Shown here: positions 3,601 to 17,217 of the stretch, one piece after another
Numbering within the stretch: position 1 is the first letter of the stretch
How the letters are laid out: each line of letters opens with the position of its first letter
IMG/VR virus record: IMGVR_UViG_3300008255_000099
Span: 119,412 to 183,411 of that record
DNA from: a virus
Length of the DNA stretch: 64,000 nt
Reading direction: 5' to 3' (one strand)
The notes under the pieces: generated by a model
Told to the model about the DNA's origin: nothing
Database searches by the model: none
Seen by the model: the letters and a program-made list of their open reading frames with translations, nothing else
Translations under genes and position numbers: made by a program

Positions 3601-6176
3601 CAATCTTGGTTGTCTTCATATCTTGGGAAGGGACCAATTTCCTTTGAAAGCATTGCACTTGTTTTGTATGCTTGACTTGTCATCAATGATGTAACAACAC
3701 CCATCCAAGCTAAAGCCTCTTCACTATCATAAGGTATCCCTTGTCTCATTAGCAAAGCACCTAGATCAGTGTAGCCAACTCCGATTGTTCTATAATTATA
3801 TGTCCCCTGTGCAATCCCAGGTGTTGAAAGAATAGCACCTTCGACAGACATTTCCAGTGCAATTGTTACTAAGTTGCATAGATGAAGAAATTTTTCAATA
3901 TCAAATTCTTCATCAAAAAACTTGGTCAATCTGATTGAACAAAGGTTACAGGCAGTATCATCCAAAAAATGATATTCTCCACAGTTAGAAACAACAATCC
4001 CATTAGCAACAAAATAATGTGTATAATTTTCAGTTAGATCATACACATCTTCATTGATATTATTATCTTCGAAAGAGACAATAACATCAGTTAAATCGTC
4101 TGAATAAAATTCATATTTCAATATTTCTTCAAGTTTGTTTTGTTTATCACTAGACTTATGTAAACTTATCTCATTATAAAACTTTATAATATTTTCTTTA
4201 TAAATTCTTAAAGAGTATTCTTCTGTTTTTAAAATTTTTGATTTTATTCCAAAAGAAAGAAGAAGTAGTTGAACTTGTTTTAATAAATTAAGAGATTTTA
4301 GATTTAATGAAACATCTATTACCCCACTTGACAAATTGAACGCAACTATTCCATCGGAGATAAATAAATCTGAGATAATAGACGCAACAGATTCTTTATT
4401 TAATGAAAAAACCTCATCTATAAAAGATTCTTGATTAATCTCAGAATTTAAAATTATGTATTCTTTTCGATTGTCAATTTCTTTTTCCCCGAATGGGGAT
4501 CCTATTAGATTTATTTTGTCTTCTCCTAAAACTATTTCACTAGCTTTAACTTTTCCTTTGCCTATAACTCCTAATTTATGATCTTCTGTTAAATCAATTT
4601 CATAGCCACAACTTGTCGTTAATTTATATGTTCTCTTATTACCTGTTAAAACAATATTCGTAGCACGATGAAGTTCTCCATCAGAACCTATGATATCAAT
4701 CTCTTTCCCAATTATATCTTTAATTTTTTGTAGCCCATTTTCTGTCGCTACAAATGTCTCCCCACTAACACAAGGGTTACTTGACACAATTCTTCCGTCG
4801 TTTGAACAAGTGTTCCAAGAATTAATTGTTGTGTCAAAGAAAACACCAGGATCTGCACAAGACCATGAGGATTGATTTATCTTATCCCAAAGACTTCTAG
4901 CCTTCATTGTCTTGAAAACTTTTTTATCAATCCTGTTAACTAAATTCCAATCAACATCTTGTTCAACTGCCTTTAAAAACTCATCTGTTAAACTAACAGA
5001 ATTGTTAGAATTTTGTCCAGAAACAGTTCGATATGCATCGCCGTTAAAAGAATTGTTTAATTCACAAAAATCAAAAGATTTAACTCCTTGTTTTGCAAGA
5101 GATATCGCTCTAAATACATAATTAAGTTCAACTTCATTTTCTTTTGCTTCTTGAATTAAGTTAAGAATGTTAGGATGTTCTTCTGAAGCCTCTTCACCAA
5201 GATCATTCCATTCTTTAATTATTTTGTTCAAAATTCTGTTGTTAATTTTAGATCCTGTGATCAAACTAGCAACTTTCTGCTCTTCCTTTGATTTCCAATC
5301 AATAAATTCCTCAATCTCTGGGTGATCTACATTCAGAACAACAATTTTTGCCGCCCTGCGGCTTACTCCACCTGATTTTACAGAATCAGCAGAACGATCA
5401 AAAATCTTCAAGAAGCTCATTAATCCACTTGATTGTCCTCCACCACTCAAACCTTCATTAGCACCTCTCAACTTCGAGAAATTTGAGCCCACCCCAGAAC
5501 CTCTTTTGAAAACTTTTGCTTCTGTTGATAATTGCTCATAAATGCTATTTTCTCCGAACATAGAATCTTCTATTGGAAGGATGAAGCACGCTTGGCTTTG
5601 CTGTCTAACAATGGATTCTTCTGGATTTAAAGAAGCCTCTTTGATTGTTCCTGTTTTTGGATCAAAATAAAAATAACCAGGATCTTTATTTTCAATTCCG
5701 TAAGCCCAACCCAATCCAGTGTTAAACCATTGAGGAGAATTCGGAGCCCACATCTGATGAATTAAACCATAAGCCAATTCATCAAAAAAACAATCTGCCT
5801 CTTCAATTGTTTTCACTAACTTGCTTTTAATTAACCAATATGTCCAAGTCCCAACCATCCTGTCAATGCATTGTTTTAAAGAATTCTCTCCTGAAAATTC
5901 TGCTCCTTCTGCTGGGACAGAACGATAATATTTTTCAAATCCTTCAAGCTCTTTTTCTACGACTTTAATTGTTGAATTCGGAACTTGTTTTCTTCTGAAA
6001 TATTTAGAAGCTAAAATATTGATTGCATTTTGTTCCCAAAAATCTGGGACTTCAACATTGTCTTGTTTAAAAATAATAAGACCAGATTCATCCAACACCT
6101 CTGCAACACAGGACTTCCATACGACTTCATCATAAACACTTCCATCACCTTTTGTAAAAACTCTCTTAAACTCCAT
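642..6176 (-). CDS. nrdJ: class II (adenosylcobalamin-dependent) ribonucleotide reductase with two inteins
   Basis: Motifs WAPNSPQWFNTGL, QACFI, GSGVGSNFS, RRAAKIVVLNVDHPEI, ADPGVFF; SNP|CGE and TACNL after splicing; APVGTIGLVMNCDTLGIEPDF; LYRDGSK; C-terminal TSCPD-like region and CxxC...CxxC; no small-subunit gene nearby. Confidence 0.95.
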   Translation of the reverse strand: MEFKRVFTKGDGSVYDEVVWKSCVAEVLDESGLIIFKQDNVEVPDFWEQNAINILASKYFRRKQVPNSTIKVVEKELEGFEKYYRSVPAEGAEFSGENSLKQCIDRMVGTWTYWLIKSKLVKTIEEADCFFDELAYGLIHQMWAPNSPQWFNTGLGWAYGIENKDPGYFYFDPKTGTIKEASLNPEESIVRQQSQACFILPIEDSMFGENSIYEQLSTEAKVFKRGSGVGSNFSKLRGANEGLSGGGQSSGLMSFLKIFDRSADSVKSGGVSRRAAKIVVLNVDHPEIEEFIDWKSKEEQKVASLITGSKINNRILNKIIKEWNDLGEEASEEHPNILNLIQEAKENEVELNYVFRAISLAKQGVKSFDFCELNNSFNGDAYRTVSGQNSNNSVSLTDEFLKAVEQDVDWNLVNRIDKKVFKTMKARSLWDKINQSSWSCADPGVFFDTTINSWNTCSNDGRIVSSNPCVSGETFVATENGLQKIKDIIGKEIDIIGSDGELHRATNIVLTGNKRTYKLTTSCGYEIDLTEDHKLGVIGKGKVKASEIVLGEDKINLIGSPFGEKEIDNRKEYIILNSEINQESFIDEVFSLNKESVASIISDLFISDGIVAFNLSSGVIDVSLNLKSLNLLKQVQLLLLSFGIKSKILKTEEYSLRIYKENIIKFYNEISLHKSSDKQNKLEEILKYEFYSDDLTDVIVSFEDNNINEDVYDLTENYTHYFVANGIVVSNCGEYHFLDDTACNLCSIRLTKFFDEEFDIEKFLHLCNLVTIALEMSVEGAILSTPGIAQGTYNYRTIGVGYTDLGALLMRQGIPYDSEEALAWMGVVTSLMTSQAYKTSAMLSKEIGPFPRYEDNQDCMLKVIRNHRRASYNSLSEEYEDLNVAPRGIDIDYCPEYLLVKARQIWDQVLELGEEFGFRNSFVSVIAPVGTIGLVMNCDTLGIEPDFALIKYKKLSGGGYMKIANNSVPIALKNLGYTENQIIEIIDYIIGKKIIDDKCPNINIETLIRKKFSIEQIESLNKSLDGAYHISNSFNKFVLGESFCKDVLKIPEEMLADDYFSIINYLGFSEEEIREANDYICGRGTVEGAPYLNEDHYVIFDCASKCGDYGTRYIPYLAHIRAVSAVQPFLSGSISKCITGESLLFTDRGLLRIGSLRSNELPNTFSNCNIKIDSIDSRENTDSFYYGGFKPVKKIILKDGSEITGTFNHPLYCMNDDGNLEWKQLYNIQNKDYVATKIGSDLWSSNEFNFKLSNEFNFKLSKKWGAQKEINIPDKMSDDLSWLIGFYMAEGNISKSNYTIQITNSCIDLLDKANNMFKSIFNIDGKIIETENKCPCLRISSKYLCEFFNNINIGNISYEKTIPDCILQSTKNNIIYFINGLMSDGYVVYEKYNSKIGICLNSKSIILDLKNILSNLGVLSNIIAKYNKKYKRNYYELYCSGYYAQLLSNIMMFNEEYRNKKLIKIKESNYFPSTSDIIPNQNLKYLYSLVPKELRIKYNYLSDKRTSNVSFNTIKNMINDKIDIPKNLIDIVENNIHFSKVIYSEQDGIKEVFDISVPNSHAFISNGIINHNTINAPNEITIKEVENCHFEAHKSGLKCISLYRDGSKLSQPLNSVSGIDYEKLLLNADLTDQQVDAEFSVEAFQEAIRHRLPRKRIGYTHEFEIGGYNGPRHKMFLRTGEYPDGRLGEIFIDYAEEDAFARTTLGLLARCVSISLQYNVPLEEFTDAMRTITQDPRGQVLHDNIKWAKSMYDVIGRVLAYEYLGDKDAVEVPDEDDDDRDPQEAKVVHAIKTKNKTQNGVSKREKPAGKSCPQCGSRDTVKLPGSCAIRCRQCKFEDYETCGG
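1461..2768 (-). mobile_element. intein 2 in NrdJ (436 aa) with LAGLIDADG homing endonuclease
   Basis: SISK|CITGESLL...HAFISNGIINHN|TIN; blocks LIGFYMAEGN and FINGLMSDGY; +1 residue Thr. Confidence 0.93.
2392..2444. repeat. 24-bp exact tandem duplication inside intein 2
   Basis: TTTGATAATTTAAAATTAAATTCA x2 plus TTTGA; encodes SNEFNFKL twice. Confidence 0.95.
3984..4772 (-). mobile_element. intein 1 in NrdJ (263 aa) with truncated endonuclease
   Basis: SSNP|CVSGETFV...HYFVANGIVVSN|CGEY; only the second LAGLIDADG-like block (ISDLFISDG) is visible; penultimate residue Ser rather than His. Confidence 0.92.
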
Positions 6177-6972: not shown

Positions 6973-7103
6973 CAGTCTCTCCTTCGAATCATAATTCTAA
7001 CTCATATCATTCTTTTTGTATCTTATTATTGCTACAATCAAAAAATTTATACCTCTTTGGTTTAATTAATTTTTGGAATTTTTTTATACTTTTTTTGGTT
7101 TAG

Positions 7104-7111
7104 TGTATAAT
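7104..7111 (+). promoter_or_regulatory. putative -10 box (TGTATAAT) upstream of prkA operon
   Basis: TGTATAAT 78 nt upstream of ATG 7189 in a divergent intergenic gap. Confidence 0.6.
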
Positions 7112-7188
7112 ACATCAAACGACACCGAATATCATTTAAATTGTGGAAAAACAGATCGGCGTTAATGATTCTTGAAAGGAGCATATGA

Positions 7189-9192
7189 ATGAACATTTTT
7201 GATGTTATCAAACAAGAAAAAGGTAAGATAAATGAAGAAAGCAACAAACTAAAATGGTCTGGAACTATGGAAGAATATGTACAATTAGTTTTAGACAACC
7301 CTAACGTAGCAGCCCTATCACATAAAAGAATGGAGAATATGGTCATTAATAATGGTACGGAATGGGTTGATAAAGAAGACGGGAGAGGGAAAAGAATAAA
7401 ATATAAATTCTTTGAAGATAAATTGTTTGGTGTCGAAGATACTATTGAAAAAATAGTTGATTATTTCAAGTCTGGTGGTCAAAGACTTCCGACTAGAAAA
7501 AGAATACTTCTTTTGATGGGTCCTCCTGGTGGCGGGAAATCAACAATTGTAATTTCCTTAAAAGAAGGATTAGAAGAATACACTAAAACAGATGAAGGAG
7601 CTATCTATAAAATCAAAGGATGCCCAATGAACGAAGAGCCTCTTCATGCTCTTCCAAAATCAGTTCATGATATTTTGCTTGAAGAGCATAAAATTTTCAC
7701 AGAGGGAACTTTGTGCCCTGTCTGTAAATGGCGATTGGACAATGAGTTTGATGGTGATTGGACAAAATTCGAAGTCGAAAGATTTATTTTTGACGAACAA
7801 ACCAGAAACGGGATTGGAACCTTTGCCCCATCTGACAGAAAAGTTCAAGACATTGCCGAATTGGTGGGTTCAATCAACCTTGCAAAAATAGGTGATTTCG
7901 GAGATGAATCAGATCCAAGAACTTATGATTTCAACGGTGAATTAAACATTTCCAACAGAGGTATGGTTGAATTTATTGAGATGTTAAAAGCTGGTGATGA
8001 ATTCCTTTATGCTTTGTTAACTCTTTCACAAGAAAACAACATAAAAACACCAAGGTTCTCTTTGATCTATGCAGACGAAGTAATCATTGCACATACCAAC
8101 GAGACAGAATGGCAGAAATTCATTTCAAAACCAGAAAATGAAGCATTAAGAGATAGGGTTATTACAATAATTTCTCCTTATAACTTAAAATTAAGAGATG
8201 AAGTTAAAATTAATGAAAAACTTCTTAATGAATCTGGGCAAAAAGATATTCATATCGCACCACATACATTAGAAGTAGCTTCTATGGTTGCAATTATGTC
8301 CAGACTCGATCTTCCGAAAGATACTTCAATTGATTTAATTAAAAAGATGAAAGCATACAATGATGAGGAAGTTGAAGGTTTAAGAAGACAAGAAGTAGAT
8401 GAAATGAAAAGCTCTTCTGAAAGAGAAGGGATGGATGGTCTTGGACCAAGATATATTTCTAACTGCCTCTCAAAAGCTATTACAAAATCAAGAGAAGAAC
8501 TCAGAAAAAGAATATCTGAACAAGACACAAGTGATCTTTACGCTGTTAAGACAGAAGAGCTTGAGAAAATGAAGATTCCATTTGATCCAATTATGATTAT
8601 GCATAGCATTTTAAGTGAAATCCGTGAAGATCCTAAAATGCCACACGACCAAAAACAAAAACTTGAGAACATTGTTCAAATGGCAAAAGAAGAGTTCGAC
8701 AGATTGGTAACAATTGATGTCCACAAGGCTTTTGTCTATGGTTTCGAAGATGAAGCTAAAGATATGTTCAAAAGTTATATTGATCATGCAATATCATATT
8801 GTCAAGATGACAAAGTTGTTAATCCGATAACTGGAGAAAAAGAAAATCCGAATGAAGAATTTATGCGCTCAATCGAAATGCACGCAAATGTTAAAGAAGC
8901 AGCAAAAGATGAGTTCAGAACAGAAATTCTTCGCAGAATGGCCGCATATGGACATCAGAATAAAGAATTTAATTATAACACTCATAAAGCATTAAAAGAA
9001 GCAATTCAAAAAGAGATTTTTGATCGAAGAAAAGATGCTATTCATATGACAACAAATTCAATCAATCCTGATCCAGAACAATTAGAAGAATTAAATCGGG
9101 TCATCAAGCGCATGTGTACAGAAATGAAATATGATCCAATCTCTGCAAACAGAGCATTGAGATATGTTAGTAGAATTAATTCAAGAGGATAA
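7189..9192 (+). CDS. prkA: PrkA/YeaG family AAA+ ATPase / serine protein kinase
   Basis: RKRILLLMGPPGGGKST Walker A; IKGCPMNEEPLH; LCPVC; GIGTFAPSD..QDIAELVGS; GELNISNRGMVEFIEMLK; IAHTNETE; IAPHTLEVA. Confidence 0.95.
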   Translation: MNIFDVIKQEKGKINEESNKLKWSGTMEEYVQLVLDNPNVAALSHKRMENMVINNGTEWVDKEDGRGKRIKYKFFEDKLFGVEDTIEKIVDYFKSGGQRLPTRKRILLLMGPPGGGKSTIVISLKEGLEEYTKTDEGAIYKIKGCPMNEEPLHALPKSVHDILLEEHKIFTEGTLCPVCKWRLDNEFDGDWTKFEVERFIFDEQTRNGIGTFAPSDRKVQDIAELVGSINLAKIGDFGDESDPRTYDFNGELNISNRGMVEFIEMLKAGDEFLYALLTLSQENNIKTPRFSLIYADEVIIAHTNETEWQKFISKPENEALRDRVITIISPYNLKLRDEVKINEKLLNESGQKDIHIAPHTLEVASMVAIMSRLDLPKDTSIDLIKKMKAYNDEEVEGLRRQEVDEMKSSSEREGMDGLGPRYISNCLSKAITKSREELRKRISEQDTSDLYAVKTEELEKMKIPFDPIMIMHSILSEIREDPKMPHDQKQKLENIVQMAKEEFDRLVTIDVHKAFVYGFEDEAKDMFKSYIDHAISYCQDDKVVNPITGEKENPNEEFMRSIEMHANVKEAAKDEFRTEILRRMAAYGHQNKEFNYNTHKALKEAIQKEIFDRRKDAIHMTTNSINPDPEQLEELNRVIKRMCTEMKYDPISANRALRYVSRINSRG

Positions 9193-9196
9193 AAAC

Positions 9197-9433
9197 ATGA
9201 CTTATGATATAATTATTCCAATTCAAGGAATGTGTTCAGAATCAAAAACAGATTTAGCCAAAAGGATTAAATCTATTTTGAAAGAAGAATACAAACGGGT
9301 CGATGTTTTATGTGAAGATGACGATGGATTCCATGATGGTCTTTCTGAAAATGAAACAATTTTAATCAGGACAGTTCCAACCCCTGATGATTATTATAAT
9401 AACATACCTAAAGTAATTTATGGAGAGGTTTAG
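9197..9433 (+). CDS. hypothetical protein
   Basis: ORF track 9164..9433; ATG at 9197 follows a GAGGA RBS at the prkA stop. Confidence 0.7.
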   Translation: MTYDIIIPIQGMCSESKTDLAKRIKSILKEEYKRVDVLCEDDDGFHDGLSENETILIRTVPTPDDYYNNIPKVIYGEV

Positions 9434-9441
9434 AGGTTTAA

Positions 9442-9855
9442 ATGAGTTATTTAATTTTAAAATGTGAACATTTCAAAAAAGATTTAAATGCAATACCAAT
9501 TATTTATGATGAAGAGAATTCTTTTAAAGAAGCAAATAAAAAATTTGCTTCTTTAAAAGAATTAGAAAATCTTCAAAGTTTTTATATCGAAGTTGATGAT
9601 GCTAAAAAGTTTAAATGGGACGAAGATTTGTTGATGTTAAGCATCTCAACAGATGATTTTTTATTTTTTAATTCAATACTTGATCAATTAAGAACTTTTA
9701 GAAGGCTTTTCCTTCCTTGTTTAACTCTTGAACCAATTTTTGGTGAAATGCAGAAAATAGAATTTTTAAACAATTTTTCAATTGATTTTTCATTAGAAGA
9801 AGTTTTAAACACACCATTAATTACAGTTGTTATGGTTGATTTGCTTGAGGAGTAG
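9442..9855 (+). CDS. hypothetical protein
   Basis: 137 aa ORF, GAGG RBS, within operon. Confidence 0.7.
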   Translation: MSYLILKCEHFKKDLNAIPIIYDEENSFKEANKKFASLKELENLQSFYIEVDDAKKFKWDEDLLMLSISTDDFLFFNSILDQLRTFRRLFLPCLTLEPIFGEMQKIEFLNNFSIDFSLEEVLNTPLITVVMVDLLEE

Positions 9856-9859
9856 AAAA

Positions 9860-10068
9860 ATGTCATTAATTGAAAGGAATAAATTTGAAGAAAAAGAGAA
9901 GACAATATCTGGGCATAATCCATTAGAAGGACGAGCTATTTTAAAATAATTGTTTTAGCAGATGATGGTTGTGATTATAATTGGGAAGAAAGGACATGGA
10001 GTCACATAGAAATGAATCCATCTGAAAAAATAGATATAGATAAATCTTTAAATAGTTTTTATAATTAA
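9860..10068 (+). pseudogene. small gene split by a -1 frameshift (programmed or mutational)
   Basis: GAGGAG RBS and ATG 9860 give 29 codons ending T TTA AAA TAA; the -1 frame continues IIVLADDGCDYNWEE...FYN to TAA 10068. Confidence 0.5.
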
Positions 10069-10086
10069 GAAAAGAAAGGTAAAAGA

Positions 10087-12747
10087 ATGCCAACACACAA
10101 AGTAGTTAGAGACTTCGAATTATTTCGAAGAATTAAAAAAGATGTTAAACGGCACAATGAAAGATTGAGAGATGCTATCAAGAAAAATCTACATGATATT
10201 ATCGCTAATGAAAACATTATCACTAGTGATAAAAATAAAACATTAAAAGTTCCCATTCGACAATTAAAAACATGGCAATTCAACTATGATTTTAAGAGAA
10301 TGCAGAGGACAGGGCATGGAGATGGCCGTGGGACATTAATCAAAAAGGGCAAAAGAGCTAAAACACAATGCCCAACTTGTGGAGATATCTTTGAGGTAAA
10401 TAGAGATAACGTGTTTTATCTTTTCGGCCCCACAAGGAACAATCTTATGAATTTCGACAATCAAAACGACCCAGACGCTTCAATGCAAGCTTCCGATGAT
10501 AAATACGCCGAAGGCAAGGGCGGAAAAAGAAGAACGATCCCAGGGCATCTAATGGGGCGTGAGCAACAAGGTGGTGAAGGTGGAGATGGGGTACAGGGCG
10601 GTGAATTAGCTGGTGAAGAATACTATGAGACTGATGTCCCGTTGTCAGAAATAGAGAAAATACTATTTGAAGAATTGGGCTTGCCATATTTAGAAGACAA
10701 AGGTCAAAAGAAAGTTAAAGCTCAAAATTATAAATTTGAGGAAATAGTAAAATCTGGACCTGTATCACATCTTGCAAAAAGACAATCTATTAAAAGAAAT
10801 ATAAAAAGAAGAACTATTCTCAAACAAAAGGGAATAGGTCGTTTTTGGAATGAGGATCTTAGATATAGATCTTGGGAAGTAGACGAAGAAGAAGAGAGTT
10901 GTGCAGTTGTTATAGCAATGATTGATAGCTCGGGTTGTCTTACCGAAGGGCATATGATAGAAATGGCAAATGGTTCATATAAAGATATCTCAGAAATAAA
11001 AATAAATGATAAAGTAGCATGTATCGATTTAAATACACATAAAAAAACAACATCTTCTGTTTCAAATAAATTTGAATATATTGTTGATAAAACAATAAAA
11101 ATAAAAACAGAAGATACAGAGCTTAGATCTACTGGTAATCATAAATTTTTTATAATTGATTCTAAAAATGGGATTATTGAAAAAAGAGCAGATGAAATAC
11201 AAGAAGGGGATGAATTAATATTAGTTAATTCATGGGGAGATACGGCTATATCTCATTCGTCTGTTTTAACAGAAAATAAAGCATATTTATTGGGGGCCAT
11301 ATTAGGAGATGGAATATTATATATTCCTAAAAAGAAAGGACAATATGAAACTTGTATAAGAATATTTGATAAAGATATTTCTAATCTTAATAGATATAAA
11401 AAATTATTTAAAGAAGAATTTAATACAATTGGAATTATTAAAATAGATAGAAATGAAAATTGTCATAAAAATAGTTTACATTTAAATAATTCAAAACTAA
11501 CAAGAGAATTATCTAATGAATATCCTATGTTAATAAAAAAATCCAGAGAGACATATGTAGATAATATTATTTTTACAGAAGAACCAAAAATAAGAGCTTC
11601 TTTTATCTCTGGGTTGTTTGATGCAGAAGGGTCCGTATCTGAGCATACGGTTAATATGTCGTCATCAAGCCATATGCTTGTTAAACAAATAAAGTTATTA
11701 TTATCCTATTGGGGAATAAGAGCAAGAATAATAGAAGAATATCAAAAAGACAGAAGTATTAATGGGCATGTATTACCAAATAATAAATATTATTTATTAT
11801 CAATTAATTCTAAAGATTGTATTTTATTTCAAAAATATATTAATTTTAGATCTATATCAAAGATAAATAAATTAAACAAATTAATCCGTAGGCAAGAATC
11901 CGGTATTAATGCTATGACGAGTAAATATATACCTAATTTTAGATGGAGAGAAGAATTGTCTAATATTCCAAAAACATCAAGGGTATATTCTTATTATAAC
12001 AATGATAATTATGGTATATCTAAATCAGCATTAATGACAATATTATCAGATAATAAAATAACAAACATAGATAGGATAAAAATAGAAAAAACACTATCTA
12101 ATAAACTTATAATATCTAAAGTTAAAAATGTTAATATAATTGATAGTACTACTAATGTATATGATTTTGAGGTTGAAAATTATCATAATTATATAGTTGA
12201 TGGGATATTAAGTCATAACTCAATGGACGAAAACAAAAAATTCTTGGCTCGATCTTTTTATCTTTGGATGGTTAGATTTCTTCAAAGTGAATATGATAAC
12301 GTTGATATTGTGTTCATCAATCACCACACAGAAGCAAAAGAATGTACAGAAGAAGAGTTTTTCAAGAGGGGTGAAAGCGGTGGGACAAAATTCTCTAGCG
12401 CTTATAAACTTGCTTTAGATATCCTGCGAGAAAGATATTCGCCGACAGATTGGAACTCATATTTGTTCCATTTTAGCGACGGTGAGAACTGGTATGGAGA
12501 TAATGAAATTTTATTCCCAATTATGAAAGAGATATTGAATTATCCGTGCAATCTATTGGGATATGGGGAAATTTCAGAAGATCAAGTTGAAAACCATCCA
12601 AATTGGTGGCATCCATCAACAAACTTTGCTGATATGCAAAAGAATTTCAAAGAACATGAAAGATTTATTGCAACAAAAATCCATAGTGTTAAAGATATTA
12701 AAGATGCTTTAACAATATTCTTTGATAAAACGAAACAAGCAAATTAA
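10087..12747 (+). CDS. yeaH: YeaH/YhbH (DUF444) vWA-domain protein with intein
   Basis: DIIANENII...KVPIRQL; GGELAGEEYYE; LFEELGLPYL; NEDLRYRSW; AVVIAMIDSSG|SM MIDAS motif after splicing; FINHHTEAKE; GGTKFSSAY; YSPTDWNSYLFHFSDGENW. Confidence 0.93.
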   Translation: MPTHKVVRDFELFRRIKKDVKRHNERLRDAIKKNLHDIIANENIITSDKNKTLKVPIRQLKTWQFNYDFKRMQRTGHGDGRGTLIKKGKRAKTQCPTCGDIFEVNRDNVFYLFGPTRNNLMNFDNQNDPDASMQASDDKYAEGKGGKRRTIPGHLMGREQQGGEGGDGVQGGELAGEEYYETDVPLSEIEKILFEELGLPYLEDKGQKKVKAQNYKFEEIVKSGPVSHLAKRQSIKRNIKRRTILKQKGIGRFWNEDLRYRSWEVDEEEESCAVVIAMIDSSGCLTEGHMIEMANGSYKDISEIKINDKVACIDLNTHKKTTSSVSNKFEYIVDKTIKIKTEDTELRSTGNHKFFIIDSKNGIIEKRADEIQEGDELILVNSWGDTAISHSSVLTENKAYLLGAILGDGILYIPKKKGQYETCIRIFDKDISNLNRYKKLFKEEFNTIGIIKIDRNENCHKNSLHLNNSKLTRELSNEYPMLIKKSRETYVDNIIFTEEPKIRASFISGLFDAEGSVSEHTVNMSSSSHMLVKQIKLLLSYWGIRARIIEEYQKDRSINGHVLPNNKYYLLSINSKDCILFQKYINFRSISKINKLNKLIRRQESGINAMTSKYIPNFRWREELSNIPKTSRVYSYYNNDNYGISKSALMTILSDNKITNIDRIKIEKTLSNKLIISKVKNVNIIDSTTNVYDFEVENYHNYIVDGILSHNSMDENKKFLARSFYLWMVRFLQSEYDNVDIVFINHHTEAKECTEEEFFKRGESGGTKFSSAYKLALDILRERYSPTDWNSYLFHFSDGENWYGDNEILFPIMKEILNYPCNLLGYGEISEDQVENHPNWWHPSTNFADMQKNFKEHERFIATKIHSVKDIKDALTIFFDKTKQAN
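10936..12219 (+). mobile_element. intein in YeaH (428 aa) with LAGLIDADG endonuclease
   Basis: DSSG|CLTEGHMI...NYIVDGILSHN|SMD; blocks LLGAILGDG and FISGLFDAEG. Confidence 0.95.
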
Positions 12748-12763
12748 CTGAAAGGAAATATTA

Positions 12764-15577
12764 ATGAGCTTCAATATAATATCTATTTCTGAACAAGATA
12801 AGAAATTAAATAAAGTAATAGAAGTAATTGACAAAAAAGCAAAAGAACTCGGACTAGAACATAATGATACAATTTTTGAGATTGTATCACAAGATAGAAT
12901 GAGGGAACTTTCAAGTTATGTTTTACCAATAAGATATCATCACTGGACATTCGGTCGTGATTACTACAAACATAGAACAATGGATAAATATGGTCGAGGT
13001 GGTAGGCTTTATGAAATGGTTATAAATAGCCAACCAGCTTATGCTTGGTTACTTGATTCAAATAGTTTAATGGAAAACAAACTTGTTGTAGCACATGTTT
13101 TCGGGCATGTTGATTTTAGCGAAAACAATATGCTGTTTAACACAACAGATAGAAGGATTGTTTCATCAGCAGCAAAAAATGCTGAAATTGTATCTGGTTA
13201 TGCCTTTAAATATGGGGAAGAAGAAGTTGAACGATGGATAGATGCTTGTTTGTCACTTTCTTGGAACATAGAACTAAACACAACAAAAGTAGAAAGTAGA
13301 AAATGGATTACAAAAAAAGATTCATTGAATGTCAATGATATAAATTCAGATTTAAATAAAATGTTCGAAAATTTTGATGAGTTAGATCCTGTTTTTCTTG
13401 CTGAAAAGCTAAAAGAATTGTTGGTTTATAAACAAAAGTTAGAAGAACCAGAACCAATGATGGAAAAAGATCTTCTTCTTTATTTTATTTATAATGCAAA
13501 AAATCTTTCAAAATGGCAAAAAGATGTAATGTCAATCATCCGTGAAGAACAAAGATATTTTAGGCCAAATATTCAAACAAAAAATATTAACGAGGGATGG
13601 AGTTGCATTACAAAAGATTCTCTAATCTCTACCAATAAAGGATTTATTCCTATTAAAGAATTATTTGAAATAAAAAATGATATTTTAATTAGAAATTTAA
13701 ATAAATTAACATCAATTAGTGATTTTTATACTTCTAATCAAGGAAAAATAATTAAATTAACACTTAGGAACGGGTTGATCATCAGGGGGCTAGAAGATCA
13801 TAAAGTACAAATCTGGAATGGGGTTAATCAAGAAACCAAATTACTAAAAGACATAACAACAGATCACAAAGTTATAACTGGTCTAAACCAAAATATTTGG
13901 TCTAATAAAGATTCTAATGTAGATTTTAATATAAAATTTGATAAAAATGTTGGGGAATCTAAATTAATGCATTTGAATATGCCTGATAGAATTAATAAAG
14001 ACATTTCAAGATTATTAGGATATATAGTTGCAGAAGGATGTTTTGCTAAAAGAGAAATAAGAATTGTTAATAAAGATATAAATCTACTTATTGATGGATA
14101 CAATATATGTAAAATTAACTTTAATTATGAACCAGTATTAAAAGCTAGAAAAGCTTTTAATGAAATTGGTGAATATGATTTAAAAATATATTCTTCTTAT
14201 GTTAGAAGATTTTTTGAGTTATGTGGATTAAAAAATGTCAAATCTATTGACAAAGAGATTCCTTCCTTAATTCTTCAATCAACGAAAGAAACTATTTGTT
14301 CTTTTCTTTCAGGATTGTTTGAAGGGGATGGATGCATCTCAGTTAAGTCAAGACAATTAATTTTTATTAGTAAGTCTCAAAAGTTAGTTTTTCAAGTTGC
14401 CATGTTGATGAACAACCTTGGAATTAACACATCTTATGGTAAAAATAAAAAGAAAGGACATAAAGATTGCCATAGATTAACAATAAGCACCAAGAAAAAT
14501 CTTGAAAAATTCAGAGATGAAATTGGATTTATTTCAGACAATAAAATAGGGAAGCTTAATAATGCTATTAGTAGTTATATGTGGTCAAAGTCTAGGAATG
14601 AGCAGATAGAATTAGACGGGAACGACGAATGGCAAGCTACTGATGTTTTTTCAATTGAAGAAGATGGATTTGAAGAATGCTATGATATAACTATTCCAGA
14701 AGGGCATGTTTATGTTGCTAATGGGATTCTTAATCATAATTCGTGGTGGCACAGAAAAATATTAATGGATTTAGATGTTGAGTGTGATTTTTTAAGAGAA
14801 GACGACGAAGACATGCATTTAAAATTTGCAGCTATGCATAGTAATGTTGTAAGCCCAACATCTCTTGGATCTTTTCATCCATATTTTGTTGGTTTTAAGA
14901 TGTGGGATCATATCTTTCAAAAACTTCAAAATCCAGATGAGAATTTTAAGAAAAACCATGGAATTGAAAAACCACTAACAGAAAAAGAAGCTATTGAACA
15001 AATGAAAATTTATAGAGAGTTTAATAGTGACATTTCATTTTTTAGGAATTTTCTTGATGATGAATTAGTCGAAGAATTAGACTTATTTAACTTCAGATTA
15101 ATTCATGATGAATGGTTGGTTACCTCAAACAAACCTAAAGATGTTATAGAGAATTTATGTCATATCAAATCAAATGCTGAAATTCCACAAATTTTTATTG
15201 TTAATGACAATCATAATGATGATGGTGAACTTTATTTAATCCAAGATTATGACGGCAGATTGATAGAGGAAGAAACAATTAAAAAAGTTATGGAATATAT
15301 AGGAAAAATTTGGATTAAACCAATTCATTTAGAGTGTGTCCAAAGATATAATGATGAATTGGTTATAGATCTAAAAACAAATAAAAAAAGCTTAATAGAA
15401 GGAGACGAATATATCAAAGTATACACATATACTGGAAAAGACAAGTTAGATACTAAAACCATTCCTTTTTTCCCGAGGAGCATTTCAGAGAGAGCTAAAC
15501 TTGAAGCGACCTCAACTCTTCGAAAAATTAAAGAGAATCGAAAAAGAATGGAAAATCAGATAAATAGCATCAATTAA
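12764..15577 (+). CDS. spoVR: SpoVR/YcgB family protein with intein
   Basis: LPIRYHHWTFGRDY; RLYEMVINSQPAYAWL; VVAHVFGHVDF; WQKDVMSIIREEQRYFRPNIQTKNINEGWS|SWWH; HPYFVGFKMW. Confidence 0.95.
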   Translation: MSFNIISISEQDKKLNKVIEVIDKKAKELGLEHNDTIFEIVSQDRMRELSSYVLPIRYHHWTFGRDYYKHRTMDKYGRGGRLYEMVINSQPAYAWLLDSNSLMENKLVVAHVFGHVDFSENNMLFNTTDRRIVSSAAKNAEIVSGYAFKYGEEEVERWIDACLSLSWNIELNTTKVESRKWITKKDSLNVNDINSDLNKMFENFDELDPVFLAEKLKELLVYKQKLEEPEPMMEKDLLLYFIYNAKNLSKWQKDVMSIIREEQRYFRPNIQTKNINEGWSCITKDSLISTNKGFIPIKELFEIKNDILIRNLNKLTSISDFYTSNQGKIIKLTLRNGLIIRGLEDHKVQIWNGVNQETKLLKDITTDHKVITGLNQNIWSNKDSNVDFNIKFDKNVGESKLMHLNMPDRINKDISRLLGYIVAEGCFAKREIRIVNKDINLLIDGYNICKINFNYEPVLKARKAFNEIGEYDLKIYSSYVRRFFELCGLKNVKSIDKEIPSLILQSTKETICSFLSGLFEGDGCISVKSRQLIFISKSQKLVFQVAMLMNNLGINTSYGKNKKKGHKDCHRLTISTKKNLEKFRDEIGFISDNKIGKLNNAISSYMWSKSRNEQIELDGNDEWQATDVFSIEEDGFEECYDITIPEGHVYVANGILNHNSWWHRKILMDLDVECDFLREDDEDMHLKFAAMHSNVVSPTSLGSFHPYFVGFKMWDHIFQKLQNPDENFKKNHGIEKPLTEKEAIEQMKIYREFNSDISFFRNFLDDELVEELDLFNFRLIHDEWLVTSNKPKDVIENLCHIKSNAEIPQIFIVNDNHNDDGELYLIQDYDGRLIEEETIKKVMEYIGKIWIKPIHLECVQRYNDELVIDLKTNKKSLIEGDEYIKVYTYTGKDKLDTKTIPFFPRSISERAKLEATSTLRKIKENRKRMENQINSIN
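13604..14740 (+). mobile_element. intein in SpoVR (379 aa) with LAGLIDADG endonuclease
   Basis: NEGWS|CITKDSLI...VYVANGILNHN|SWWH; blocks LLGYIVAEG and FLSGLFEGDG. Confidence 0.95.
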
Positions 15578-15590
15578 GAATGGAGAAAAA

Positions 15591-15947
15591 ATGAACAAAG
15601 AAAATAAAATAGTTGATAACGAAGATATTGATTATGTAGAAGATGATGATGTAAAAGTTCTTTTAGTTAAGGGGGCAAATGCATCAAAAGATTCTGTGGT
15701 TAGGCTTGCAAGAGCAATAATGGTAAGTCTTCAACAACATAGTTATGCCGATCTTCAAGCAATAGCACCACCTGCAATCAACAGGCTTATGAAAGCATAT
15801 ATAAAATCAAAGAGCATGTTTCAAGACTATGCTAATGGATACGGGTTAGTGATGCAGGCGAGTTATACAAAAACAGAAATAAATGGGAATTTAACGACAG
15901 CAATTAGAGCAAGGATTTTTGCAGTCCCTAATGCTTATATTAGATAA
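15591..15947 (+). CDS. spoVS: SpoVS-like protein (Alba-like fold)
   Basis: DLQAIAPPAINRLMKAYIKSK...GLVMQASYTKTEINGNLTTAI parallels SpoVS EIQAIGAGALNQAVKAVAIAR...DLICIPAFTDIQIDGEERTAI. Confidence 0.75.
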   Translation: MNKENKIVDNEDIDYVEDDDVKVLLVKGANASKDSVVRLARAIMVSLQQHSYADLQAIAPPAINRLMKAYIKSKSMFQDYANGYGLVMQASYTKTEINGNLTTAIRARIFAVPNAYIR

Positions 15948-15975
15948 AAAGTTAAATTAAAATATCATAAAAAAG

Positions 15976-16006
15976 ATCAGAGATACCAGAATTTGGTATC
16001 TCTGAT
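15976..16006. terminator. bidirectional intrinsic terminator
   Basis: 13-bp perfect stem ATCAGAGATACCA/TGGTATCTCTGAT, A-run before and T-run after, between convergent operons. Confidence 0.85.
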
Positions 16007-16215
16007 TTTTTGGTTCTTTAATTAAGTTTTCAGAAAAAGATTTTTCATAAAAAGATATGGTCTTTGTAATAATATTTTCTGGTACATAAGAATTAATCAT
16101 TGAATAAGCGTCAACTGTTATGTTGCAACTTATATTATAATTAATTATCTAAAAAAAGTTGACCAAGCCTTTGTGGATCCAAAAAATCAGTGACGGTATT
16201 TGAAAAGTTTTGCAT

Positions 16216-17217
16216 TTAATCATCCAATCCTACGCACGACATTCGATCTTTTATATTTTTCATCGCTGCTATAAATCTTTTTTTAGGCAATCCTACTTTT
16301 GTGTTTGTTAATTTCCCATTAGCAACAGTCTTAACATCAGAAGAAAGAATATATTCAACTATTTGTCTTTCATCTTCTGACATTTCTATATCAATAAAAT
16401 AATTAAATGCTTCTGAATTATGAAAATTAATTGCTGAAATTTCACCGTCATTTTGAGTGTAATCTTCAGTTAAATTTATATATTCTTCTGATTGATCTTT
16501 TTGATATTCAGAAACACATTTTGTATGATCGTTAGAAATAAAATAATTAGGATAATCTTCTTTAAATTGCTCTAGAACAAGAGAGCTATGAAAATTAGCA
16601 ATATGCTCATAAATCTTATTCTTCTTTTTTTGTTCATCCAATCCATTAATTTTACATCTTTTTCTTGGGAGATGCTTTGGACATAGTGGGCACCCTTCAT
16701 CAAATGAACTTGTTGTAATCCCTAATTCATAAAGTTTTTTGTCTGTTAACTGCTCAACATGATCTAATAAAATATGTGAAGATAGTGGTGACGTCTTTTT
16801 ACTGCAAATAGGACAAATTTGTGTGGGATTTCTTTTTGCTGCATTTTGGTGTTTTATTTCATTTGAATAATGCTGCTGCAAAGTCTTATAAAAATAGTTA
16901 TTTAGAGTCCCTTGACCTTTTATTTCAACTCCACCACTTTTTAAATTTTCTTTTGTTTTAAAACAATTGATTGATTTAATAAAACAAAATAAATAATCTG
17001 ATTTAAAAACATCTTGATCAAAATTATACAACCAAGCATATTTCTTCCACCAAACATTATAATAATCTAATGGGTCGTAATGAAATATAATTTCTTCATA
17101 AAAAGCTTCAGATTCTATATCATCATTTCTTTTTCTAGAATTTTGGTAACAAACAACAGATTCTTCAGCCGAAGAGGTTTTTATAAATTTCTTATCACTC
17201 ATAAGTCTCCTAATCAA
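16216..17217 (-). CDS. sigma-70/ECF-like sigma factor with inserted C2H2 zinc fingers
   Basis: Region-2-like DVFKSDYLFCFIKSINCF...TLNNYFYKTLQQHYSNEIKHQNAAKR; CPIC..H...H and CPLC..H...H; region-4-like MSEDERQIVEYI...VGLPKKRFIAAMKNIKDRM. Confidence 0.65.
   Translation of the reverse strand: MIRRLMSDKKFIKTSSAEESVVCYQNSRKRNDDIESEAFYEEIIFHYDPLDYYNVWWKKYAWLYNFDQDVFKSDYLFCFIKSINCFKTKENLKSGGVEIKGQGTLNNYFYKTLQQHYSNEIKHQNAAKRNPTQICPICSKKTSPLSSHILLDHVEQLTDKKLYELGITTSSFDEGCPLCPKHLPRKRCKINGLDEQKKKNKIYEHIANFHSSLVLEQFKEDYPNYFISNDHTKCVSEYQKDQSEEYINLTEDYTQNDGEISAINFHNSEAFNYFIDIEMSEDERQIVEYILSSDVKTVANGKLTNTKVGLPKKRFIAAMKNIKDRMSCVGLDD

What the first reader, a model, noticed from the sequence alone, without database searches (positions are those of the whole stretch)
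7189..15947. Phage-encoded PrkA/YeaG-YeaH-SpoVR(YcgB) operon extended by SpoVS
Seen: an intact three-gene core in canonical order plus a SpoVS-like gene under one promoter and terminator. Established: YeaG/PrkA (AAA+), YeaH (vWA) and YcgB/SpoVR form a conserved stress, starvation and sporulation module in bacteria and archaea; SpoVS is a sporulation-linked Alba-fold protein that is not normally part of this operon. Inference: the phage may control host dormancy or stress physiology, or run a second AAA+/vWA protein-remodelling machine. SpoVR has HVFGH...NEGW, compatible with a metal-binding site.
Basis: partly seen in the sequence, partly recalled or inferred. Interest (0 to 1): 0.72.

Follow-up and report, generated by a model that had tools for sequence, protein, structure and literature searches.

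The report
Phage PrkA-YeaH-SpoVR operon with two inteins
A large groundwater phage carries its own diverged copy of a bacterial starvation/sporulation gene trio, as many other large phages already do; new here are self-splicing inserts (inteins) in two of the three genes, while the neighbouring SpoVS-like gene belongs to the phage backbone.

Summary
They are PrkA (7189-9192), two orphan ORFs, YeaH/DUF444 (10087-12747), SpoVR (12764-15577) and a diverged SpoVS-like gene (15591-15947). One strong terminator follows at 15971-16011.

Each holds an in-frame LAGLIDADG intein. The YeaH intein splits the vWA metal-site motif (DSSG|SM); the SpoVR intein splits the invariant NEGWS|SWWH motif.

The record is a phage, not a mis-join. 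It has a portal and a terminase, the block has the same GC as its flanks, the flanks are colinear with a relative, and identical contigs occur in four other aquifer runs.

The trio is not new in phages. It is in Thermus phages (phiYS40, TMA, Lalka, MN1, phiLo), Ralstonia phage RsoM2USA, four huge uncultured phages and about 45 of 55 IMG/VR loci. No function is known in any of them.

SpoVS is absent from ten other trio-bearing phage records. A colinear relative has the SpoVS-like gene at the same place without the trio. The "extension" is therefore most likely juxtaposition by an 8.4-kb indel.

The scan noted this same stretch before in an overlapping window; that follow-up was withheld. Verdict: a new member of a known kind, of moderate interest.

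The parts
7083..7111 (+). Best sigma-70-like promoter match (TTTATA-17-TATAAT) in the 216-nt divergent intergenic region upstream of prkA. An AAAGGAG ribosome-binding site lies at 7176-7182.
   Evidence: This is a consensus match only; such sites are not enriched over shuffles.
7189..9192 (+). prkA: PrkA/YeaG-type AAA+ protein of 667 aa, with Walker A GPPGGGKS.
   Evidence: Pfam PF08298 and PF06798. It matches the solved structure 9XIP over residues 17-662 at E 7e-118. Invariant residues are listed.
9164..9433 (+). orfA, 89 aa, an orphan ORF. It overlaps the end of prkA by 29 nt; an internal ATG at 9197 would avoid the overlap.
   Evidence: no Pfam family; no match to the small ORFs of relatives; no lead.
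9442..9855 (+). orfB, 137 aa, an orphan ORF.
   Evidence: No family and no convincing lead.
10037..10065 (+). Internal promoter-like site (TAGATA-17-TATAAT) in the 231-nt gap before yeaH.
   Evidence: Consensus match only.
10087..10935 (+). yeaH N-extein (aa 1-283), ending in the first half of the vWA MIDAS motif ...AMIDSSG. It also holds a lineage-specific insertion of about 80 aa (roughly aa 85-165) with a CPTC motif.
   Evidence: PF04285, junction, alignment.
10936..12219 (+). YeaH intein, 428 aa. It runs from Cys1 (CLTEGH...) to ...ILSHN, followed by Ser+1. It has two LAGLIDADG motifs (LLGAILGDG and GLFDAEG).
   Evidence: PF14890, PF14528 and PF07591, boundaries. Seven metagenomic YeaH proteins have the same site.
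12220..12747 (+). yeaH C-extein (aa 712-886), starting SM..., with MIDAS Thr748 and Asp798. The spliced product is predicted to be 458 aa.
12764..13603 (+). spoVR N-extein (aa 1-280), with AHVFGHVDF and ending ...NINEGWS.
   Evidence: PF04293.
13604..14740 (+). SpoVR intein, 379 aa. It runs from Cys1 (CITKDS...) to ...ILNHN, followed by Ser+1. It has two LAGLIDADG motifs (LLGYIVAEG and GLFEGDG).
   Evidence: PF14528 and PF14890, boundaries. About 12 metagenomic SpoVR proteins have the same site.
14741..15577 (+). spoVR C-extein (aa 660-937), starting SWWH. The spliced product is predicted to be 558 aa, exactly the length of the intein-less homolog P0008 (66% identity over the N-extein).
15591..15947 (+). 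SpoVS-like gene, 118 aa, with an acidic N-terminal tail. It starts 13 nt after the spoVR stop. It is a diverged member of a small subfamily and a backbone gene of this phage lineage.
   Evidence: PF04232 at 31.8 bits. Only 21 relatives among 1.8e9 representatives. PDB 2EH1 at E 7.7e-21. Synteny with L063.
15971..16011 (.). Bidirectional intrinsic terminator: a 19-bp hairpin followed by a T-run, lying between convergent genes.

Best explanation
**What the stretch is.** It is one co-directional unit in an uncultured aquifer phage. The record is 183 kb and rated 58% complete; the same proteins also occur on a 273-kb contig. Gene order is prkA, two orphan ORFs, yeaH, spoVR, a SpoVS-like gene, then a terminator.

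**Shown.**
1. The three named genes are a long-resident, compositionally ameliorated, fast-evolving phage copy of the cellular PrkA/YeaG - YeaH/YhbH - SpoVR/YcgB module. This module recurs in Thermus phages, jumbo phages and many viral contigs.
2. yeaH and spoVR are each split by a LAGLIDADG homing intein placed inside the most conserved motif: MIDAS DSSG|SM in YeaH and NEGWS|SWWH in SpoVR. Mature YeaH (458 aa) and SpoVR (558 aa) can form only after protein splicing.
3. The same two insertion sites recur in distant homologs, and an intein-less close homolog of SpoVR exists. The inteins are therefore mobile and polymorphic.
4. The SpoVS-like gene belongs to the phage backbone. A colinear relative has it at the same position without the trio, so the four-gene look comes from an 8.4-kb indel.

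**Inferred.**
- The module works as it does in cells: a PrkA AAA+ ATPase with its vWA/MIDAS partner YeaH and the probable metal-site protein SpoVR act as one pathway.
- During a slow infection of a nutrient-starved groundwater host it would supplement or override the host's starvation and dormancy programme.
- The SpoVS-like protein is co-transcribed but functionally separate.
For: - **Gene families and motifs:**
- **Intein boundaries and catalytic residues:** Cys1, terminal His-Asn, Ser+1 and two LAGLIDADG motifs.
- **Recurrent insertion sites and the empty-site homolog:** P0008 is 558 aa. A second SpoVR intein site lies in the AH|xxGH motif of a 395-kb viral contig.
- **Phage nature:** portal and large terminase subunit on the same record. 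RNR, PolIII alpha, UvsX, primase, DnaB and SbcCD surround the block.
- **Composition:** block GC is 0.301 against 0.312 and 0.325 in the flanks, with matching GC3.
- **Independent samples:** identical contigs, including across the intein junctions, in four further aquifer/groundwater runs.
- **Trio in other phages:**
- **Tree:** the window's PrkA is a long branch (0.81) outside the tight cellular clade. It sits in a polytomy with Thermus phages and huge-phage contigs.
- **SpoVS-like as a backbone gene:** L063 is colinear gene for gene on both sides and lacks the block. A loose end at 15586 in three runs, with roughly 5-8-fold higher depth over the SpoVS-like bin, suggests an abundant relative with different upstream sequence.
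- **SpoVS absent elsewhere:** not in other trio-bearing phages or near prkA.
- **One cellular pathway:** yeaG, yeaH and ycgB show cofitness in six bacteria (bioRxiv 10.1101/072470).
Against: - There is no expression, splicing or phenotype data of any kind, and no RNA run was listed.
- The host is unknown, so a link to sporulation or dormancy is conjecture.
- Only 20 kb of the 115-kb L063 contig was seen, so the trio could lie elsewhere in that phage. With two genomes, gain cannot be told from loss.
- Co-transcription with 13-nt spacing would allow a functional tie between SpoVR and the SpoVS-like protein.
- In Thermus phages the trio sits next to portal, head and terminase genes. This hints at a role in the phage's own assembly rather than in host physiology.
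- The biochemical activity of PrkA is itself disputed: kinase, protease, or neither (PMC13001217).
Confidence: 0.55

Rival explanations
1. One reading: a true four-component module. The SpoVS-like protein would be a dedicated partner or effector of the phage PrkA-YeaH-SpoVR machine.
For: - Same strand, 13-nt spacing after spoVR, and a single strong terminator after the SpoVS-like gene.
- In the Thermus aquaticus Y51MC23 genome paper, spoVS (gene 1644), prkA (1649) and spoVR (printed as 11651) bear nearby gene numbers (PMC4605624). This lead was not tested here.
Against: - The SpoVS-like gene stands at the same backbone position without the trio in colinear L063, and in a different context in L060.
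- Ten other trio-bearing phage records have no SpoVS.
- None lies within 8-10 kb of prkA in 135 loci.
- In the four cellular genomes with a SpoVS match (of five searched) it lies at coordinates that do not fit the prkA locus.
- Two huge-phage relatives carry a DAC-domain gene after spoVR instead.
Confidence: 0.15
2. The trio serves the phage itself. It would be an AAA+/vWA(MIDAS) remodelling or maturation machine, analogous to MoxR-vWA pairs, acting on phage complexes such as the head, packaging or replication factories rather than on host dormancy.
For: - In Thermus phage Lalka8 the trio lies between the portal/minor-head genes and TerL. In phiYS40 it lies next to the large terminase and tail genes.
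- Pairing of an AAA+ ATPase with a vWA protein is typical of cofactor-insertion and remodelling systems (established knowledge, not tested here).
Against: - In this phage the block sits in the replication and nucleotide-metabolism region.
- In cells the module gives starvation and sporulation phenotypes.
- No virion proteomics data were examined.
Confidence: 0.2
3. Artefact: a cellular contig mis-joined to phage DNA, or host genes at a prophage edge.
For: The closest PrkA sequences are cellular (43-49% identity: Bacillota, Chloroflexota, Acidobacteriota). Some IMG/VR hits, such as L004, nest inside cellular clades.
Against: - The block is flanked on both sides by phage genes that are colinear with L063.
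- GC and GC3 equal the backbone.
- Portal and TerL are on the same contig.
- The same proteins occur on 4-8 contigs of up to 273 kb.
- Identical sequence occurs in four other runs.
- PrkA lies outside the cellular clade on a long branch.
Confidence: 0.02
4. A decaying cargo: the genes no longer function and persist only as landing pads for homing inteins.
For: - At least 8 inteins in 183 kb.
- PrkA lies on a long branch.
- YeaH has a lineage-specific insertion.
Against: - All ORFs are open over 8.4 kb.
- Walker A, the MIDAS residues and all family-invariant SpoVR residues are retained.
- The intein splicing residues are intact.
- Inteins persist only in genes under selection (established knowledge).
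Confidence: 0.05

Closest known systems
Cellular PrkA/YeaG - YeaH/YhbH - SpoVR/YcgB module (E. coli yeaGH + ycgB; B. subtilis prkA-yhbH + spoVR)
   Same: - The same three Pfam families in the same order.
- Walker A, MIDAS and SpoVR invariant residues are kept.
- PrkA aligns end to end with the solved structure 9XIP.
   Different: - It is encoded by a phage.
- PrkA is only 43-49% identical to cellular ones, most of which are at least 72% identical to one of five representatives.
- Two orphan ORFs are inserted.
- Two of the genes hold inteins.
- SpoVR has a C-terminal extension shared only with a few metagenomic homologs.
Phage copies of the trio: Thermus phages phiYS40/TMA (YS40_056-059), Lalka8/27, MN1, phiLo; Ralstonia jumbo phage RsoM2USA (ORF28-30); huge phages LR756502/04/11 and LR745206; about 45 IMG/VR loci
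   Same: A phage-borne PrkA with YeaH and SpoVR beside it. No function has been assigned. The RsoM2USA paper only lists the genes (PMC8504454).
   Different: - 27-41% PrkA identity.
- The Thermus phages have the order yeaH-spoVR-(x)-prkA, next to packaging genes.
- None has SpoVS.
- None has an intein at these two sites in the loci seen. L005 has a SpoVR intein at a different site.
SpoVS (B. subtilis stage V sporulation protein S; Thermus thermophilus SpoVS-related protein, PDB 2EH1/2EK0)
   Same: It passes the PF04232 cut-off. The subfamily profile matches 2EH1 over the whole domain at E 7.7e-21.
   Different: - It is highly diverged: 31.8 bits against about 133 bits for canonical SpoVS.
- It has an acidic 25-aa N-terminal tail.
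- Its subfamily is small (21 representatives), often tandem-duplicated, and found on phage-like contigs.
LAGLIDADG homing inteins in conserved motifs of phage and cellular proteins, including the InBase SpoVR-like intein of Chloroflexus aurantiacus J-10-fl
   Same: Class-1-like inteins (Cys1 ... His-Asn, Ser+1) with a nested LAGLIDADG endonuclease, placed in active-site motifs. The SpoVR host protein is already on record (bioRxiv 10.1101/2025.01.02.630785).
   Different: - The Chloroflexus intein is described there as having an antisense endonuclease. Whether its site is the same was not checked.
- I found no paper in the held library that mentions an intein in DUF444/YeaH.
MoxR-type AAA+ / vWA-MIDAS pairs (RavA-ViaA, CbbQ-CbbO, NorQ-NorD)
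   Same: An AAA+ ATPase encoded next to a vWA protein with a complete MIDAS. This is an analogy of how the pair might work, drawn from general knowledge.
   Different: PrkA is a different AAA+ clade with a kinase-like C-terminal domain. There is a third obligatory partner, SpoVR. No homology or interaction was tested here.

Membership tests
PrkA/YeaG (PF08298 + PF06798) | An N-terminal AAA_PrkA domain and a C-terminal PrkA domain, both above the Pfam cut-offs. | tested here: met
   383 and 197.5 bits against cut-offs of 25. Match to solved PrkA 9XIP over residues 17-662 at E 7e-118.
PrkA/YeaG (PF08298 + PF06798) | Walker A P-loop and the family-invariant residues of the ATPase core. | tested here: met
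   GPPGGGKS (G111-S118), D296, H302, N304, E307 and R323 are invariant in the 4-phage alignment.
PrkA/YeaG (PF08298 + PF06798) | ATPase, kinase or protease activity. | not testable with these tools
   The activities are disputed even for Bacillus PrkA (PMC13001217).
YeaH/YhbH (DUF444, PF04285; vWA fold) | A DUF444 match above the cut-off across both exteins. | tested here: met
   269.4 bits in 4 stretches, interrupted by the intein.
YeaH/YhbH (DUF444, PF04285; vWA fold) | A complete MIDAS (D-x-S-x-S ... T ... D). | tested here: met
   D280, S282, G283 | S712, T748 and D798 are invariant in the alignment. The motif is contiguous only after splicing.
SpoVR/YcgB (PF04293) | A SpoVR domain above the cut-off, with the invariant H-x-x-x-H-x-D and NEGW...WH residues. 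| tested here: met
   299.6 bits. H111, H115, D117, N276-W279, W662 and H663 are invariant among 12 homologs.
SpoVR/YcgB (PF04293) | The SpoVR_C domain (PF24755). | tested here: inconclusive
   20.9 bits, below the cut-off of 27.6.
SpoVS (PF04232) | A Pfam match above the cut-off over the full 83-position domain. | tested here: met
   31.8 bits against 24, covering positions 7-82. The profile matches 2EH1 at E 7.7e-21.
   SpoVS was found in 0 of 10 other trio-bearing phage records and near prkA in 0 of 135 loci. The SpoVS-like gene occurs without the trio in L063 and L060.
Homing inteins with a LAGLIDADG endonuclease | Cys/Ser at position 1, a C-terminal His-Asn, a nucleophile at +1, and an in-frame insertion relative to intein-less homologs. 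| tested here: met
   YeaH: C284...H710-N711|S712. SpoVR: C281...H658-N659|S660. Intein-less homologs align without a gap across the site.
Homing inteins with a LAGLIDADG endonuclease | Two LAGLIDADG motifs with acidic catalytic residues. | tested here: met
   PF14528 at 48.8 and 79.1 bits. The motifs are LLGAILGDG and GLFDAEG in YeaH, and LLGYIVAEG and GLFEGDG in SpoVR.
Homing inteins with a LAGLIDADG endonuclease | Protein splicing and homing activity. | not testable with these tools
   Indirect only: presence/absence polymorphism between P0008 and P0009. No intein-less joint was seen in four runs.

The most novel reading that the evidence does not exclude
The phage trio would be a minimal, portable version of the PrkA-YeaH-SpoVR pathway that the phage uses to hold or shift a starved host between dormancy and activity. 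The two inteins, each in a metal- or ligand-binding motif, would act as conditional post-translational gates, so that active YeaH and SpoVR appear only under particular intracellular conditions. A third intein site lies in the SpoVR H-x-x-x-H motif of another huge phage. Together the intein sites would then mark the catalytic centre of SpoVR, a protein whose biochemistry has been unknown for about 30 years.
Probability: 0.15. Interest if true: 0.7.

Novelty: new member of a known kind. Interest (0 to 1): 0.4.

Why it matters
**The open question.** The PrkA/YeaG-YeaH-SpoVR/YcgB trio is one of the most widespread bacterial modules still without a mechanism. It shows cofitness in six bacteria and gives sporulation and starvation phenotypes.

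**What this survey adds.**
- Large phages of very different hosts carry the trio again and again. This argues that it controls something a slowly replicating virus needs.
- Phage versions are diverged, compact test objects for that question.
- Independent intein insertions fall in the YeaH MIDAS motif and in two invariant SpoVR motifs. They point to the residues that matter and give concrete targets for mutagenesis.

**What it corrects.**
- The SpoVS adjacency is a layout accident, not a new four-part system.
- Phage carriage of the trio has been on record since phiYS40.

Tried and rejected
- **The look-up of encoding contigs was closed.** The 273-kb contig and the contigs of the closest SpoVR and YeaH homologs could not be fetched.
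- **Narrow pattern scans of IMG/VR found no relatives.** These were PrkA alone, the SpoVS-like alignment (alignment A4 was too diverse) and the close SpoVR alignment.
- **The SpoVS-like protein has few relatives.** tblastn against 50,697 phage records gave no match. Its cluster search returned only itself.
- **SpoVR structure.** The AF2 model of the intein-less homolog P0008 has pLDDT 71.9. Foldseek against PDB gave no match at E<=0.001. The VIA-align libraries were not available. A profile search against PDB sequences gave nothing; the single-sequence hit 4OBM at E 0.01 was not pursued.
- **The two orphan ORFs.** The Atlas search gave scores of 0.83-0.86, no better than chance.
- **PF03237 terminase search in the record** found nothing. 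TerL was found with PHROGs instead.
- **L054 PrkA (967 aa)** has an insertion of about 330 aa but no intein family hit.
- **Other look-ups that failed.** The full records of L063 and L060 are not held.
- **Expression.** No RNA holder was listed.
- **Joints in the laid contigs.** The two joints (11013>13483 and 14177>15586) have sides of only 20-21 nt and do not match the intein boundaries. I treat them as spurious.
- **SpoVS near prkA in Thermus.** This proximity is suggested by gene numbers in PMC4605624, but I could not test it because no Thermus genome handle was available.
Full report
**1. What is in the sequence**

Between 7189 and 15947 the + strand carries six ORFs, in a region where the flanking genes all run on the - strand.
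- Pfam assigns 7189-9192 (667 aa) to PrkA (PF08298 383 bits, PF06798 197.5 bits).
- It assigns 10087-12747 (886 aa) to DUF444/YeaH (269 bits).
- It assigns 12764-15577 (937 aa) to SpoVR (299.6 bits).
- It assigns 15591-15947 (118 aa) to SpoVS (31.8 bits, cut-off 24).
- Two ORFs of 89 and 137 aa (9164-9433 and 9442-9855) and a 231-nt gap separate prkA from yeaH. They match nothing.
- A 19-bp hairpin with a T-run at 15971-16011 closes the unit.
- The best + strand promoter-like site is at 7083-7111, and a second sits at 10037-10065. Such sites are not enriched over shuffles, so "one promoter" is plausible but unproven.

**2.

YeaH and SpoVR are about twice the usual length. Each contains Intein_splicing, Hint and LAGLIDADG_3 domains.

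The YeaH intein:
- It spans aa 284-711 (nt 10936-12219), from CLTEGH... to ...ILSHN, followed by Ser.
- It separates ...AMIDSSG from SMDENK.... It therefore lies inside the vWA MIDAS motif D-x-S-G|S-M.

The SpoVR intein:
- It spans aa 281-659 (nt 13604-14740), from CITKDS... to ...ILNHN, followed by Ser.
- It separates ...NINEGWS from SWWHRK....

Evidence that both are live, mobile inteins:
- Both have two intact LAGLIDADG motifs.
- The predicted spliced products are 458 and 558 aa. An intein-less metagenomic SpoVR, 66% identical over the N-extein (P0008), is exactly 558 aa. Its near twin P0009 (934 aa) carries the intein.
- About a dozen SpoVR proteins, at 32-66% identity, have an intein at the same site.
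- Seven YeaH proteins (34-47% N-extein identity; 43-49% over the whole alignment) have one at the same MIDAS site.
- A SpoVR on a 395-kb viral contig (L005) has an intein at a different site, VIAH|C...HN|CYGHSAFF. That site is inside the invariant AHxxGH motif.
- A SpoVR-like intein from Chloroflexus is already in InBase according to bioRxiv 10.1101/2025.01.02.630785. I found no paper in the held library that mentions an intein in DUF444.
- The 183-kb record holds at least eight inteins: two in RNR, one each in PolIII alpha, the portal, the thymidylate-synthase ORF, YeaH and SpoVR, and one in an ORF of about 1850 aa (open frame 1873 aa).

**3. Is it really phage DNA?**

Yes.
- The window is the last 64 kb of a 183,411-bp IMG/VR virus record rated 58% complete. 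The same proteins occur on 4-8 contigs, the longest 272,967 bp.
- The record encodes a portal and a large terminase subunit.
- The block is surrounded by class II RNR, a Cas4-like exonuclease, primase, UvsX, SSB, PolIII alpha, DnaB, SbcCD and RNA ligases.
- The block's GC (0.301) and GC3 match the flanks (0.312 and 0.325).
- Contigs from four further aquifer/groundwater runs are identical over the operon and bridge the extein-intein junctions and the spoVR/SpoVS-like junction.

The mis-join alternative is rejected.

**4. Is the trio new in phages?**

No.
- tblastn finds PrkA in 17 phage records, and SpoVR in 16 of them, usually next to PrkA. These are eleven Thermus phage records (phiYS40, TMA, YS40_Isch, Lalka8/27a/27b, MN1, phiLo), Ralstonia jumbo phage RsoM2USA and four huge uncultured phages. 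In LR756502 the two genes lie far apart.
- Their annotations show yeaH-spoVR-x-prkA in phiYS40 and Lalka8, and prkA-yeaH-spoVR in RsoM2USA. The RsoM2USA paper lists the genes without further study (PMC8504454).
About 45 show PrkA-YeaH-SpoVR in order, and at least ten lie on contigs of 137-395 kb.
- spoVR and spoVS have also been reported separately as viral auxiliary genes in viromes (PMC8940887).

**5. Where does this copy come from?**

- The best cellular PrkA matches are 43-49% identical (Bacillota, Chloroflexota, Acidobacteriota). Most of those cellular proteins are at least 72% identical to one of five representatives.
- In a quick maximum-likelihood tree the window's PrkA is a long branch (0.81).
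- It falls inside the well-supported Terrabacteria-type group but outside the tight cellular clade. It sits in an unresolved polytomy with Thermus phages and with L005+L010.
- With the ameliorated composition, this points to long residence in phages rather than recent capture. The tree is a quick search with long branches, so I claim no more than that.

**6. The SpoVS-like gene**

- It is a real but remote SpoVS. Canonical SpoVS scores about 133 bits on the Pfam model, against 31.8 here. A profile of its subfamily matches the Thermus SpoVS structure 2EH1 at E 7.7e-21.
- The subfamily is tiny: 21 proteins at E<=0.001 among 1.84 billion representatives, several of them tandem duplicates.
- Four metagenomic loci encode it.
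- L063, from a 115-kb contig, is colinear with the window gene for gene. The shared order is RNR, two small - strand ORFs, the SpoVS-like gene (tandem form, + strand), a homolog of 16216-17217, Cas4 exonuclease, primase, UvsX, SSB, two more ORFs and PolIII alpha. It has no prkA, yeaH or spoVR between the divergent intergenic region and the SpoVS-like gene.
- L060 carries the gene in yet another context.
- Conversely, PF04232 finds nothing in ten other trio-bearing phage records. A subfamily HMM finds nothing near prkA in 80 cellular and 55 viral loci.
- In three of the laid runs, contigs match from 15586 onward but have other sequence upstream. Depth over that bin is roughly 5-8-fold higher. 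This fits a more abundant relative that has the gene without spoVR before it.

The four-gene appearance is therefore best explained by an 8.4-kb insertion or deletion next to a backbone gene. With only 20 kb of L063 in hand, I cannot exclude that L063 holds the trio elsewhere, nor tell gain from loss.

**7. How it most likely works**

Shown: three intact family members, two of which need protein splicing to regain their conserved motifs.

Established:
- yeaG, yeaH and ycgB behave as one pathway in six bacteria (10.1101/072470).
- PrkA is an AAA+ protein needed for sporulation and osmotic stress tolerance, with disputed enzymology (PMC13001217).

Inferred:
- In the infected cell the phage trio acts as that same pathway, an AAA+ motor with a MIDAS partner and SpoVR. 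It would bias the host's starvation or dormancy state in favour of a slow, large-genome infection.
- The alternative is that it remodels phage complexes. This is kept alive by the position of the trio beside the portal and terminase genes in Thermus phages.
Structure-based confirmation failed: there is no solved relative and no Foldseek hit for an AF2 model of pLDDT 72.

**8. Verdict**

- This is another member of an already recorded, functionally unexplored class of phage-borne PrkA trios.
- What is notable is the pair of motif-splitting inteins, not the SpoVS neighbour.

Noticed in passing
window 642-6176 (-), 23054-27535 (-); genome C1 about 48.5-50.9 kb, 75-80.6 kb, 81.8-85.3 kb: The record is very rich in inteins, with at least 8 in 183 kb. 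They lie in class II RNR (two), PolIII alpha, the portal, a thymidylate-synthase ORF, an ORF of about 1850 aa (open frame 1873 aa), YeaH and SpoVR. The colinear relative L063 has PolIII alpha without an intein (1070 against 1493 aa).
   Followed up: partly
L005:16450-16953 and L010:15611-16168: In two huge-phage contigs (395 and 206 kb) whose PrkA is 40-41% identical to the window's, a DisA-type diadenylate cyclase (DAC) domain gene lies just downstream of spoVR: directly after it in L005, after a YpsA/SLOG gene in L010. This could link the trio to c-di-AMP signalling.
   Followed up: no
L005:13877-16450: This SpoVR of 857 aa has a LAGLIDADG intein at a second site, VIAH|C...HN|CYGH, inside the invariant AHxxGH motif.
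   Followed up: partly
window 10340-10580 (YeaH aa about 85-165): A lineage-specific insertion of about 80 aa in the YeaH N-extein, with a CPTC motif. It is absent from all aligned homologs.
   Followed up: no
P0039 (920 aa): A metagenomic protein carries DUF444 with the MIDAS-site intein, followed in the same frame by the start of a SpoVR domain. It may be a YeaH-SpoVR fusion or a read-through gene call.
   Followed up: no
window 15586, and depth bins 7304-7607, 10952-11255, 11864-12167, 13384-13687: In several aquifer runs, contigs of much higher depth match short parts of the operon and then diverge; the loose ends lie at 7390, 11176, 12010, 12076, 13064, 13691 and 15586. These parts include pieces of both inteins. 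Related inteins or genes therefore appear to sit in other, more abundant genomes of the same community.
   Followed up: partly
L054:9110-12013: An IMG/VR PrkA of 967 aa has an insertion of about 330 aa inside the AAA domain. The insertion matches no Pfam intein family.
   Followed up: partly
L001 (phiYS40) and L003 (Lalka8): In Thermus phages the trio lies beside the portal/minor-head genes and the large terminase, not in a replication module.
   Followed up: no
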